In this document: one piece after another, positions 30,001 through 33,000 of the stretch
Numbering within the stretch: the stretch's first letter is position 1
Layout of the letters: every line of letters begins with the position of its first letter
Source of the DNA: Escherichia coli
GTDB taxonomy: Bacteria > Pseudomonadota > Gammaproteobacteria > Enterobacterales > Enterobacteriaceae
Strand: one strand, 5' to 3'
Length of the DNA stretch: 64,000 bases
Assembly (NCBI RefSeq): GCF_003790525.1
Contig: NZ_CP033635.1
Program-made: the position numbers

Positions 30001-33000
30001 GAAAATGAAAGGCGACAAGGATTTCGTCATGCTCAAGAGACACTTTGCCCGGCCCAGTGTGAAAGCCATTAATCGGGACGAAACGAACACCGCGTGGGGA
30101 GTGGATCTCCAGCTTTGCGTCATAAATTAGCGTTGGCGTGGCAGAATCTGCGCTGGTGGCACCGTTGCAAATATTTCCACCGTAGGTAGCGACGTTACGG
30201 ATCTGCGGTCCGGCAATGGATGAGGCCGCAGCACATAACGCCGGGAGATGACGTTGAGTTACAGGATCTTCAATGAGCTGGGTAAATGTCGTTGCAGAGC
30301 CGATACGTAGTGAGCCATCTTCCGCCAGCGTAATTCCCCGCAGCTCCGCCAGATTATGAATATCAACAATATGGCGATAACGGTCATTGTGATGGTGGAG
30401 CTGAATCAGTACGTCAGTGCCACCGGCGAGCAGTTTGGCCTGCGGGTTGTCAGCCAGCAGGTTGATGGCATCGGCAAGGGTTGCTGCGCGATGGTAAGAA
30501 GCAAAATCAAACATGATGTTATCCTCAAATCAATCCTGCCAGATGGAACTCTTCATATAACCGTTTTGGCGTCAGCGGCAGTGTATTGATTGCAACACCG
30601 GTAGCCATCTTCACCGCGTTACGAATAGCAGCGGCAACAGGAATTATTGGTGGCTCACCCAGTGACTTATGTCCGTATGCGGATTGCGGCTCATTGATTT
30701 CGACGAACGCGCTTTCCAGTTGTGGCAGATCCGGCATGGTCGGCATTTTGTAATCCAGCAGATTGGGGTTACGGACCACGCCGCTTTTCGCATCGATGAT
30801 CATCTCTTCAAATAGCGCCCAGCCAATGCCCATTCCCATTCCGCCGTGTACCTGACCTTCTGCCAGCAGCGGATTTAGAATATGCCCCGAATCATGAACG
30901 TTGAGGATGCGGTTGATGGTGACTTTACACAGCGCAATATCGACCGTCAGATCAACAAAGGTACAGCCAAACGCCGGTGGGTTAGTGGTGGTTTTGATGG
31001 AGCTTTCAGCAGAGAGCTGCCCACCGCGTTCAGGGTGGTAGAAAGCGTCCATCGCCAAATCTTTTAACGACATTAACGGCCCTTCCGGTCGTTCAACCAG
31101 CACGATATGGCCTTTTATCAGGGTCAGATTCATCGCTGACTGATGTAGCATGACTGCGGCGTGAGCGATGATTTTCTCTTTTAATAACAGTGCCGCACTG
31201 CGCAGCGCAGGCGCGGCAACATAGCTCTGGCGTGAGGCAAATGCGCCGGGATCGAACGGCGTAACATCGGTATCTTGTGTTGAAATAACGCGAACGTCGC
31301 TGACCGGAACCCCCACGGTTTCTGCCACCATTTGCGAGAAGACGGTGTCGGCACCCTGACCGATTTCCGTCGCGCCGCTTTGCACGTTGATGGTTCCATC
31401 CTGATTCATCAACAGGCGCGCGCCTGCTATTTCTACGCCGACAGGCCAGGTGTTCGAGGTGTAGCTAAAACAGGCGACGCCAACGCCGCGGCGTAAATTG
31501 CCTTTCTGGTTCTGGCACTCTGCACGGCGTTTTTCCCATTCAAAGATTTTCCGGCCTTTTTCAAGACACTCCGGCAACCCTGCGCTGTAAATACGTTTGC
31601 CCGTGAGCGGATTAGCATCTCCTTCGCGGGCGGCGTTGCGTAAACGAATTTCAACAGGATCAATACCTAACGCTGTCGCGGCGTCATCAAGCATAGACTC
31701 AACGGCAAATACGACTTGTGGCGCGCCATAACCACGCATCGCACCAGCCGAGGGGAGGTTGGTATAGCAGGTCTTTGAACTGTAAGCGTAGGCACAACGA
31801 GGATAAAGGTAAGCGACTTTATTCCCCCCTGCAGAAGCGATGGAGTGCCCGTGAGATGCATAAGCGCCGGTGTTAGACAGAACATCCAGACTATAACCTT
31901 TCAATGTTCCGTCGCGGTTCACGCCCATTTGCCCGTCAATAGTAAAAGCGTGGCGGGTACGGGTTGCGAGGAAACACTCTTCACGGCTAAGGGAAACTTT
32001 CACCGGAATGCCGCCAAGCTTGCTGGTCAGGAATGCCGCCATTGGCTCTTCCAGTACATCCTGTTTATTACCAAAACCGCCACCGACAAACGGTTTGATG
32101 ACTCGTACGCATGACCAGGGAATATCCAGCGCCTGACCAACCACGCGGCGAACAATGTGCGGGATCTGGGTGCTGGAAACGATGGTAATTCGCGAGTCAT
32201 CCTCCATCCATGCCAGCGATGTCACGCTTTCCATGTGACAATGTTGAATAACGGGAGTCTGATAGTGCCCCTGAACCTGGTAGTCGGCGGCATCGATTGT
32301 TTGTTGGACATTGCCCGTCGACATCGTGCTTTGTTTTAGTAAATTGCCGCCGTTATGGATTGGTTCAGCGTCATCAGCCAGCGCCGCTTCTGGGGTGGTG
32401 ATAACGGGTAATTCTTGCCACTCAATGCTGACCAATTGCGCCGCTTTTTCTGCCGTGAGTTCATCACGGGCCACGACGATGGCAACGGCGTCACCATGGT
32501 GACGAACATGGCGAGTTAGCAGTGCGCGATCGGCGGTATCGCGCTTGTTTTCGTCAAGTGTCCAGGCATGCCCAGCTGTAGCGAATGGGATATCAGGCAC
32601 ATCTTCCCAGGTAAAAATCGCCAGTACGCCCGGTAAACTTCTGGCTTGTTCATCATTAATACTTACGGCATAACCATGTGCGATAGGGCTACGTACATAT
32701 TTCGCGTAACACATGCCCGCCATAACATAATCGTCAGTATATCGTGCCCGCCCGGTGACCTTAGCAATGGCATCTACGCGCATGCATGATTCACCTGTAG
32801 CGGTTGCTTCCCGCGCTTCCATAGAAATCCCCTCGATTTGAACATTTGGTTCTTATGGCAAAGATTTAGTCTAAGCAGGCAAGATTTACGCCAGAAACGA
32901 CGATAAGCGTTAAGGGAGGAAGGAAGTGTGATGATGTTAAAAAAACACAGATATGATACGAAACAGGACCCTGAATAGGGGCAGTGATACGTATCAATAT

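What the first reader, a model, noticed from the sequence alone, without database searches (positions are those of the whole stretch)
32879..32895. Candidate sigma-54 promoter upstream of xdhABC
CTGGCGTAAATCTTGCC on the xdhA-coding strand has the invariant GG-N10-GC spacing with TGGC and TTGC elements, placed about 85-100 nt upstream of the xdhA start. The only sigma-54 activator nearby is YgeV, about 3.7 kb away and convergent with xdhC. This suggests xanthine dehydrogenase expression could be wired to the YgeV regulon, which to my knowledge is not firmly established.
Basis: inference. Interest (0 to 1): 0.55.

Follow-up and report, generated by a model that had tools for sequence, protein, structure and literature searches.

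The report
Known sigma-54 promoter of xdhABC
The motif is a real, deeply conserved sigma-54 promoter in front of the E. coli xanthine dehydrogenase operon, but it has been in the literature since 2010 and its link to the activator YgeV has already been proposed, so only a shared upstream repeat that may be YgeV's docking site adds anything here.

Summary
The 17-mer CTGGCGTAAATCTTGCC is present on the xdhA-coding (minus) strand at 32878-32894, one base off the stated coordinates. It is the best sigma-54 PWM hit in the 64-kb window. All 28 usable xdhA orthologue loci, from about 11 enterobacterial genera, keep TGGCGT and TTGC while the spacer varies.

It is already known. Zhao et al. 2010 printed the same sequence with rpoN-dependent xdhA expression. 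Bonocora et al. 2015 list it as sigma-54 ChIP-seq site OS29, flagged as experimentally confirmed in EcoCyc. Lamoureux et al. 2023 place xdhABC in a "YgeV iModulon".

New here: a conserved dyad (TATCAnAATGA-N10-13-TCATnnTGATA) is centred about 141 nt upstream of the predicted start. A PWM built only from xdhA orthologues finds the same palindrome 172-178 nt upstream of the ygeW, ygfK and ygfT sigma-54 sites (joint chance about 2e-6). YgeV is the only GAFTGA-bearing activator in the window.

Direct YgeV binding and ygeV-dependence of xdhA remain untested.

Verdict: real, correctly interpreted, not novel.

The parts
32878..32894 (-). Sigma-54 -24/-12 promoter element CTGGCGTAAATCTTGCC. GG is at 32892/32891 and GC at 32880/32879.
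   Evidence: Sequence. Top PWM hit in the window at 15.8 bits. Identical to ChIP-seq site OS29 and to Zhao 2010 Table 2. Conserved in 28 of 28 orthologue loci.
32867..32867 (-). Predicted transcription start. It puts GG at -25/-24 and GC at -13/-12. The leader would be 45 nt to the ATG at 32822, or 84 nt to the K-12-annotated ATG.
   Evidence: Inference, using Bonocora's rule of 19 nt downstream of the motif centre. Their distance of 84 nt to xdhA matches. Not mapped experimentally in anything I could read.
32992..33025 (-). Candidate enhancer (UAS). Two 11-bp arms, TATCACATTGA (33025-33015) and TCATATTGATA (33002-32992), each contain a TCA-N3-TGA palindrome. Their centres are 21 bp apart, at about -152 and -131.
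   Evidence: It is the first conserved block in the alignment of 29 upstream regions. It is found in 28 of 29 by regex and is also present in Hafnia. The same motif recurs upstream of the other sigma-54 promoters in the cluster. Its function is inferred.
32924..32945 (-). Conserved T-tract plus invariant ATCACA block at about -78 to -57, between the dyad and the promoter. Its role is unassigned. It could be a CRP half-site (TTTTA-N6-TCACA) or a further activator or bending contact.
   Evidence: Alignment consensus ttTttTA....caTCAC-A.tT. Full CRP boxes sit at the equivalent place in the ygfK and ygeW promoters. No IHF consensus is conserved here.
32820..32834 (-). Shine-Dalgarno GAGGGGA (32834-32828) and the ATG at 32822-32820, the likely true xdhA start codon.
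   Evidence: The ATG and Shine-Dalgarno are conserved and are followed by 13 conserved codons (MEAREATATGESC). The K-12 start position is CTG, TTG or AAA in other genera. PGAP annotates the 765-aa form, whereas K-12 has 752 aa.
29160..32822 (-). The xdhABC operon driven by the promoter: xdhA 32822-30525, xdhB 30514-29636, xdhC 29639-29160.
   Evidence: ORFs and RefSeq annotation of identical DNA.
27342..29120 (+). ygeV, a sigma-54 enhancer-binding protein with PAS, AAA+ and HTH_8 domains and GAFTGA at residue 347. It is the proposed activator.
   Evidence: Pfam scan, GAFTGA motif, and the only such ORF in the window.
26957..26973 (-). ygeW sigma-54 promoter CTGGCACACTTATTGTT (ChIP site OS30). 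Its dyad elements lie at 27147-27188 and a CRP-like box at 27016-27031.
17320..17336 (-). ygfK sigma-54 promoter GTGGTGCGATTGTTGCT (OS31). A palindrome TTTATCATAATGATAAG lies at 17503-17519, 175 nt upstream, and a perfect CRP box at 17399-17414.
   Evidence: The same module with 171-nt spacing is found in Kluyvera.
2133..2329 (+). ygfT sigma-54 site (2314-2329, OS32, weak PWM score) with a dyad-type palindrome at 2133-2149, 172 nt upstream.

Best explanation
This is the sigma-54 (-24/-12) promoter of the xdhABC xanthine dehydrogenase operon.

RNA polymerase carrying sigma-54 sits on TGGCGT-N5-TTGC as a closed complex. It cannot open the DNA until an AAA+ enhancer-binding protein hydrolyses ATP against it. 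The activator is most likely YgeV, encoded 3.8 kb away. I propose that it binds the conserved dyad (two TCA-N3-TGA palindromes 21 bp apart) centred about 141 nt upstream of the start, and reaches the polymerase by DNA looping across the conserved T-tract/ATCACA block.

The same dyad lies 172-207 nt upstream of the ygeW, ygfK and ygfT sigma-54 promoters. One activator would therefore switch on the whole purine and urate catabolism cluster together.

Shown in the literature: sigma-54 occupancy and rpoN-dependent expression. Shown here: conservation of the promoter, and the existence and recurrence of the dyad. Inferred: that YgeV is the protein on the dyad, the exact start site, and the inducing signal.
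For: - Motif and spacing. It is the top PWM hit of 127,968 positions.
- ChIP-seq site OS29 has FAT 11, PSSM 10.9 and EcoCyc status 'confirmed'. An RNAP beta ChIP region overlaps it.
- xdhA rose 4.9-fold after sigma-54 induction and fell 2.1-fold in an rpoN deletion, with the same motif printed.
- All 28 orthologue loci have a 13.5-16.6-bit site 94-122 nt before the K-12-type start. TGGCGT and TTGC are invariant and the spacer varies.
- The alignment becomes homologous exactly at the dyad, whatever gene lies upstream.
- An arm PWM trained only on xdhA orthologues hits 172, 175 and 178/207 nt upstream of the ygfT, ygfK and ygeW sigma-54 motifs. Joint chance is 2e-7 to 2.5e-6, including under local dinucleotide shuffles.
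- The same elements are conserved upstream of ygeW in 20 loci and upstream of a ygfK-type promoter in Kluyvera.
- YgeV has PAS, AAA+, HTH_8 and GAFTGA and is the only such ORF in the window.
- xdhABC, ygeWXY-hyuA, ygfK-ssnA-ygfM-xdhD and ygfT form one co-expressed 'YgeV iModulon', and a ygeV mutant has reduced ygfT expression.
- There is no better-than-chance sigma-70 promoter and no NtrC site.
Against: - Nothing I could read shows YgeV bound to this DNA or xdhA expression lost in a ygeV mutant.
- The in vitro genomic SELEX of RpoN holoenzyme lists the ygeV/ygeW spacer but no peak at the xdhA promoter.
- In Kluyvera, Hafnia and Enterobacillus the promoter and dyad are kept but ygeV is not within 8 kb. 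I could not check the rest of those genomes.
- The dyad-to-promoter distance at xdhA (104/125 nt from the motif edge) differs from the 172-178 nt at the other three promoters.
- The dyad arms resemble the IHF core WATCAA.
- The rpoN effect in Zhao 2010 is modest (about 2-fold).
Confidence: 0.72

Rival explanations
1. The sigma-54 promoter is real, but a different enhancer-binding protein drives it, for example NtrC under nitrogen limitation. YgeV would then control only ygeW and its neighbours.
For: Purine breakdown is a nitrogen-scavenging route. Genomic SELEX reports an NtrC-bound fragment between xdhB and xdhC. ygeV is not adjacent in three genera that keep the promoter.
Against: There is no NtrC-like TGCACC-N5-GGTGCA within 4 mismatches in the xdhA upstream region, and none within 3 mismatches in any of 29 orthologues. 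The conserved upstream element is the same AT-rich palindrome found at ygeW, ygfK and ygfT. xdhABC co-varies with those operons.
Confidence: 0.08
2. The conserved dyad is not the activator's site. It would be an operator for another factor, such as a repressor, IHF or another nucleoid protein. The true YgeV site would lie elsewhere or be degenerate.
For: The arms contain an IHF-like WATCAA core. The dyad's distance to the promoter differs between xdhA and the other three promoters. A similar palindrome lies downstream of the yqeC-internal sigma-54 site, and another at 61986-61998 far from any sigma-54 site.
Against: Two-fold symmetry with a spacing of two helical turns, and a position at -131/-152, are typical of bEBP enhancers (established knowledge of NtrC-type UAS). 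In each 18-kb orthologue locus nearly all hits of 13 bits or more lie upstream of sigma-54 sites. No other conserved candidate UAS block exists upstream of xdhA.
Confidence: 0.15
3. Sigma-54 binds here but the site is a poised, essentially silent complex, and xdhABC is normally made from a sigma-70 promoter.
For: Bonocora et al. stress that binding does not prove productive transcription and that most sites are inactive under laboratory conditions. One sigma-70-like match exists at 33127-33099.
Against: The sigma-70 match is at chance level (1 found, 1.2 expected) and lies in sequence that is not conserved between genera. The -24/-12 element, dyad and spacing are conserved across about 11 genera. 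xdhA responded to sigma-54 induction and deletion.
Confidence: 0.05

Closest known systems
xdhAp, the sigma-54 promoter of E. coli K-12 xdhABC (Zhao et al. 2010 NAR; site OS29 of Bonocora et al. 2015 PLoS Genet; EcoCyc)
   Same: The 17-nt sequence is identical, as are the position relative to xdhA and the flanking genes actS/ygeR and xdhA. It is the same object.
   Different: Nothing of substance. This strain belongs to a different E. coli lineage. Most other Escherichia loci have AATTC instead of AAATC in the spacer.
Putative YgeV regulon / YgeV iModulon (Lamoureux et al. 2023 NAR; ygfT dependence on ygeV from Iwadate & Kato 2019, as cited there)
   Same: The same operons are grouped (xdhABC, ygeWXY-hyuA, ygfK-ssnA-ygfM-xdhD, ygfT, uacT), and YgeV is proposed as their activator.
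   Different: That grouping rests on co-expression. The papers I could read describe no binding motif. Here a shared cis-element is defined and shown to be conserved across genera.
Classical bEBP-dependent promoters such as glnAp2 (NtrC) or the hyc/hyp promoters (FhlA)
   Same: The architecture matches: a -24/-12 element, tandem dyad-symmetric activator sites 100-200 nt upstream on the same helical face, and a cognate activator with AAA+, GAFTGA and a Fis-type HTH encoded nearby.
   Different: The dyad sequence (TCA-N3-TGATA) is unlike the NtrC box. No conserved IHF site is detectable. The sister promoters ygfK and ygeW have CRP boxes in the loop region instead. YgeV has PAS and GAF-like sensor modules and no receiver domain.

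Membership tests
Sigma-54 (-24/-12) promoter | GG and GC dinucleotides exactly one helical turn apart within TGGCAC-N5-TTGCW | tested here: met
   TGGCGT-AAATC-TTGCC. It scores 15.8 bits with a leave-out PWM and ranks first in the window.
Sigma-54 (-24/-12) promoter | Correct orientation and short distance to a downstream gene, in non-coding DNA | tested here: met
   It is on the same strand as xdhA, in the actS-xdhA intergenic region, 56 nt (long ORF) or 95 nt (K-12 ORF) from the start codon.
Sigma-54 (-24/-12) promoter | Conservation of the -24 and -12 bases, but not the spacer, in orthologous positions | tested here: met
   All 28 loci in about 11 genera keep TGGCGT and TTGC invariant, with at least 10 spacer variants.
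Sigma-54 (-24/-12) promoter | In vivo occupancy by sigma-54 holoenzyme | not testable with these tools
   Literature: ChIP-seq peak OS29, FAT 11, with an RNAP beta ChIP region overlapping it. It is not listed in the RpoN genomic SELEX.
Sigma-54 (-24/-12) promoter | Expression depends on rpoN | not testable with these tools
   Literature: 4.9-fold up on sigma-54 induction and 2.1-fold down in an rpoN deletion.
Sigma-54 (-24/-12) promoter | Upstream enhancer for an AAA+ activator | tested here: met
   A conserved dyad lies at -131/-152. It is a candidate only, because binding was not tested.
Sigma-54 (-24/-12) promoter | Mapped transcription start 11-13 nt downstream of the GC | not testable with these tools
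   The start is predicted at 32867. I found no experimental 5' end.
YgeV regulon | A cis-element shared with other promoters next to ygeV | tested here: met
   The arm PWM built from xdhA orthologues hits upstream of the ygeW, ygfK and ygfT sigma-54 sites, with joint P about 2e-6. It is conserved in other genera.
YgeV regulon | An intact activator gene with a sigma-54 contact loop is present | tested here: met
   The 592-aa ORF has Sigma54_activat (E = 2e-70), HTH_8 and GAFTGA at residue 347. It is the only one in the window.
YgeV regulon | Gene-neighbourhood linkage of ygeV with xdhABC across species | tested here: inconclusive
   ygeV is adjacent and convergent in Escherichia, Citrobacter, Atlantibacter, Buttiauxella, Yokenella, Klebsiella indica, Trabulsiella and Pluralibacter. 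It is not within 8 kb in Kluyvera, Hafnia or Enterobacillus, and those genomes could not be searched further.
YgeV regulon | YgeV binds the promoter region, and xdhA expression requires ygeV | not testable with these tools
   Only co-expression (iModulon) and ygfT dependence are reported. The IsrR paper gives no direct targets.
NtrC (nitrogen) regulon | NtrC box TGCACC-N5-GGTGCA upstream of the promoter | tested here: not met
   There is no match within 4 mismatches in 32895-33213, and none within 3 mismatches in 29 orthologous upstream regions.

The most novel reading that the evidence does not exclude
The TCA-N3-TGATA palindromes are the previously undescribed operator of YgeV (IsrR). They would define a compact regulon of four sigma-54 promoters (xdhA, ygeW, ygfK, ygfT). 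The enhancer-to-promoter spacing is nearly fixed at about 175 nt for three of them, and CRP boxes, rather than IHF sites, occupy the loop region. This would give a testable cis-regulatory code for anaerobic urate and purine catabolism in enterobacteria.
Probability: 0.5. Interest if true: 0.35.

Novelty: already known. Interest (0 to 1): 0.15.

Why it matters
The xdh/yge/ygf cluster has recently been tied to anaerobic uric-acid degradation by gut bacteria, which is relevant to gout, and its regulation is still poorly defined.

The promoter itself adds nothing new. The candidate YgeV operator gives a concrete sequence to mutate or footprint. It would settle whether one activator coordinates all four operons and what signal it reads. 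Urate and indole have both been suggested in the literature.

Tried and rejected
- My first pattern search used the wrong spacer (N8 instead of N7) and missed the site.
- The loose consensus with 3 mismatches is uninformative: 286 hits against 301 expected.
- The exact TGGC-N7-TTGC pattern is at chance level in the window. Simple pattern counts therefore cannot validate the site, and a PWM plus context was needed.
- Iwadate & Kato 2019 and Reitzer & Schneider 2001 are not held, so their statements on YgeV are second-hand.
- A 2025 comparative sigma-54 regulon paper does not mention xdh or ygeV.
- An IHF consensus between the dyad and the promoter was looked for and is not conserved.
- An NtrC box was looked for and is absent.
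- The sigma-70 scan gave one chance-level hit.
- The second-best sigma-54 PWM hit in the window (9541-9557) is inside xdhD and absent from the ChIP tables. A high PWM score alone is therefore not evidence of occupancy.

Full report
**Observation.** The + strand of the window reads ggcaagatttacgccag at 32878-32894, which is CTGGCGTAAATCTTGCC on the minus strand. This is one base to the left of the coordinates given. The minus strand is also the coding strand of xdhA (ORF 32822..30525), xdhB and xdhC. Identical DNA in RefSeq E. coli genomes is annotated actS | xdhA, and 5411 of 5426 complete E. coli genomes carry the region. It is the only ORF in the 64 kb with a GAFTGA loop.

**Is it more than chance?** Simple patterns do not discriminate. 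TGGC-N7-TTGC occurs 3 times against 3.5 expected, and the 16-mer consensus with 3 mismatches occurs 286 times against 301 expected. I built a PWM from the sigma-54 ChIP-seq sites printed in Bonocora et al. 2015, leaving out the five sites that fall in this window.
- The xdhA site scores 15.8 bits. That is rank 1 of 127,968 positions and the 72nd percentile of verified sites.
- About 0.67 such hits are expected per random 64 kb.
- The score alone is therefore only suggestive. What carries weight is that the single best hit lies in a 390-nt intergenic region, pointing at the adjacent gene.

**Conservation.** A scan of species-representative genomes with XdhA returned 32 loci.
- All 28 loci that include the start of xdhA have a 13.5-16.6-bit site 94-122 nt before the K-12-type start codon. 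The genera are Escherichia, Citrobacter, Kluyvera, Atlantibacter, Buttiauxella, Hafnia, Enterobacillus, Yokenella, Klebsiella indica, Trabulsiella and Pluralibacter.
- TGGCGT and TTGC are invariant, and the five spacer bases take at least ten forms. This is the footprint expected of a functional -24/-12 element.

**Prior knowledge.** The site is published.
- Zhao et al. 2010 (PMC2831329) list xdhA among 22 new sigma-54 regulon genes. They print tttcTGGCGTAAATCTTGCCTGctta at -110..-93, with 4.9-fold induction 5 min after sigma-54 induction and a 2.1-fold decrease in an rpoN deletion.
- Bonocora et al. 2015 (PMC4591121) list exactly this 17-mer as intergenic-sense ChIP-seq site OS29. The peak is at 2998270, FAT is 11, PSSM is 10.9, and the distance from the predicted start to xdhA is 84 nt. 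It is flagged 'C', meaning experimentally confirmed in EcoCyc. Their supplements show an RNAP beta ChIP region over it and conservation scores in other species.
- Lamoureux et al. 2023 (PMC10602906) describe a 'YgeV iModulon' containing xdhABC and ygeWXY. They note the sigma-54 promoters upstream of both, and cite reduced ygfT expression in a ygeV mutant.
- Kumar et al. 2022 renamed YgeV as IsrR but give no direct targets or motif.
What has not been shown, in anything I could read, is YgeV binding or ygeV-dependence of xdhA.
- One discordant datum: the in vitro RpoN genomic SELEX lists the ygeV/ygeW spacer but not the xdhA promoter.

**Anatomy of the regulatory region.** The alignment of 29 distinct upstream regions is unalignable upstream of a certain point, because the neighbouring genes differ between genera. 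From that point on it shows four conserved blocks.
- (a) A dyad, TATCAnAATGA-N10-13-TCATnnTGATA (window 33025-33015 and 33002-32992). Each arm contains a TCA-N3-TGA palindrome, and the two centres are 19-22 bp apart.
- (b) A T-tract followed by an invariant ATCACA (32945-32924).
- (c) The -24/-12 element.
- (d) A Shine-Dalgarno sequence (GAGGGGA) and the ATG at 32822, followed by 13 conserved codons.

With the start predicted at 32867, GG falls at -25/-24 and GC at -13/-12. The dyad arms fall at about -152 and -131, and the ATCACA block at about -65 to -60. The upstream region contains no better-than-chance sigma-70 promoter, no NtrC box and no conserved IHF consensus.

**Link to the rest of the cluster.** I built a 13-nt PWM from 31 distinct dyad arms, taken only from xdhA orthologues, and scanned the window with it.
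- Hits of 13 bits or more outside the training site lie 172 nt upstream of the ygfT sigma-54 motif (centre 2141), 175 nt upstream of ygfK (17511), and 178 and 207 nt upstream of ygeW (27151, 27180). Four further hits lie elsewhere.
- Random 64-kb sequences give about 2 such sites.
- The joint probability that all three non-training promoters carry one in the right place is 2e-7 (Markov null), 2e-6 (observed background) or 2.5e-6 (dinucleotide shuffles of the AT-rich promoter regions themselves).
- The ygeW elements, the ygeW sigma-54 site (with its unusual TTGT at -12) and a CRP-like box are conserved in 20 loci.
- In Kluyvera, xdhABC is followed directly by a ygfK-type sigma-54 promoter with the palindrome 171 nt upstream. 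In each 18-kb locus examined, almost every strong hit sits upstream of a sigma-54 site.
- These four promoters head exactly the operons of the YgeV iModulon.

**The activator.** YgeV has PAS (162-205), Sigma54_activat (272-439, E = 2e-70), an AAA lid and HTH_8 (548-587) domains, with GAFTGA at residue 347. It has no receiver domain. ygeV is adjacent and convergent to xdhC in eight genera, but it is not within 8 kb in Kluyvera, Hafnia or Enterobacillus.

**Mechanism.**
- Shown in the literature: sigma-54 holoenzyme occupies the -24/-12 element, and xdhA responds to sigma-54 level.
- Shown here: the element and a dyad at enhancer distance are conserved as one module, and the dyad type recurs at the three sister promoters.
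- Inferred: YgeV dimers bind the two palindromes, assemble into the active oligomer, and contact the closed complex by looping. ATP hydrolysis then opens the promoter and gives an xdhABC mRNA with a leader of about 45 nt.
- The role of the ATCACA block is unassigned. It is the TCACA half of a CRP box, at the position where ygfK has a perfect CRP box (17399-17414) and ygeW has one with a single mismatch (27016-27031). A native CRP site in the ygeV-ygeW spacer is mentioned by others.
- The sensed signal is unknown.

**Rivals.**
- Another activator such as NtrC is disfavoured by the absence of its box and by the shared dyad.
- The dyad could bind something other than YgeV. Its arms resemble the IHF core, its distance at xdhA is shorter than at the other promoters, and similar palindromes occur at 18894-18910 and 61986-61998 away from any upstream sigma-54 context.
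- A silent, poised sigma-54 complex with real transcription from sigma-70 is unlikely, given the conservation and the expression data.

**Verdict.** Both the promoter and the proposed YgeV wiring are already in the literature and databases, so the finding is not novel. The by-product of this analysis is a conserved candidate YgeV operator shared by four sigma-54 promoters. As far as I could check, it is not described in the held papers that mention YgeV, and it is directly testable.

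Noticed in passing
window 32783-32834 (minus strand): The K-12 reference annotates xdhA as 752 aa starting at the ATG equivalent to 32783. The upstream in-frame ATG at 32822 has a strong Shine-Dalgarno sequence, and its 13 extra codons (MEAREATATGESC) are conserved across genera. The K-12 start position is CTG, TTG or AAA in Trabulsiella, Buttiauxella, Hafnia and Enterobacillus. PGAP already calls the 765-aa form in other strains. The K-12, EcoCyc and UniProt start is probably 39 nt too far downstream.
   Followed up: yes
window 17399-17414 and 27016-27031: A perfect CRP box (TGTGAATGAACTCACA) lies between the dyad and the ygfK sigma-54 promoter. A one-mismatch box (TGTGGGGTTGATCACA, conserved across genera) lies at the equivalent place in the ygeW promoter. 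This suggests cAMP-CRP acts in the loop region of these sigma-54 promoters.
   Followed up: partly
window 27064-27079 and 1972-1987: These are the only two PurR-operator-like sequences in the 64 kb (3 mismatches or fewer to ACGCAAACGTTTGCGT). Both lie in promoter regions of the purine-catabolism cluster. AGCCAAACGTTTTCGT is upstream of ygeW and is conserved in about 17 loci. The other lies in the ygfT upstream region.
   Followed up: partly
window 18894-18910: A dyad-type palindrome (TTTCTCAATGTGAGAAT, 11-13 bits) sits in the yqeC-yqeB spacer, about 230 nt downstream of the yqeC-internal sigma-54 site (18653-18668, ChIP site IS34) that is reported to drive yqeB. This would be an enhancer on the wrong side of its promoter, or a site with another role.
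   Followed up: no
window 9541-9557 (minus); also 61177-61193 (+) and 14847-14863 (+): These strong sigma-54 PWM hits (15.4, 15.2 and 14.8 bits) are not in Bonocora's ChIP tables or the held supplements. The first is inside xdhD, about 530 nt before the next ORF. They may be unoccupied look-alikes, or sites missed or absent in K-12.
   Followed up: partly
window 61986-61998: The best-scoring dyad-arm match in the window (TCATTATGATAAA, 18.9 bits) lies in an AT-rich stretch with no sigma-54 site upstream of it. Its meaning is unknown.
   Followed up: no
window 27342-29120 (ygeV): The literature calls YgeV/IsrR an 'orphan response regulator', but the Pfam scan finds no receiver domain. The N-terminal half has a PAS domain and a weak GAF-like match, so it looks like a ligand-sensing activator rather than a phosphorylated one.
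   Followed up: partly
L008, L009, L019 (Kluyvera), positions about 11700-12050: In Kluyvera, xdhC is followed directly by a ygfK-type sigma-54 promoter (GTGGTGCGAATGTTGCT) with the palindrome 171 nt upstream. ygeV and ygeW are not within the 8-kb flank. The gene order is different, but the same enhancer-promoter module is kept.
   Followed up: partly
window 26957-26973: The ygeW sigma-54 promoter has TTGT instead of TTGC at -12 in every genus examined, as the pspA promoter does. This is a conserved non-consensus -12 element.
   Followed up: no
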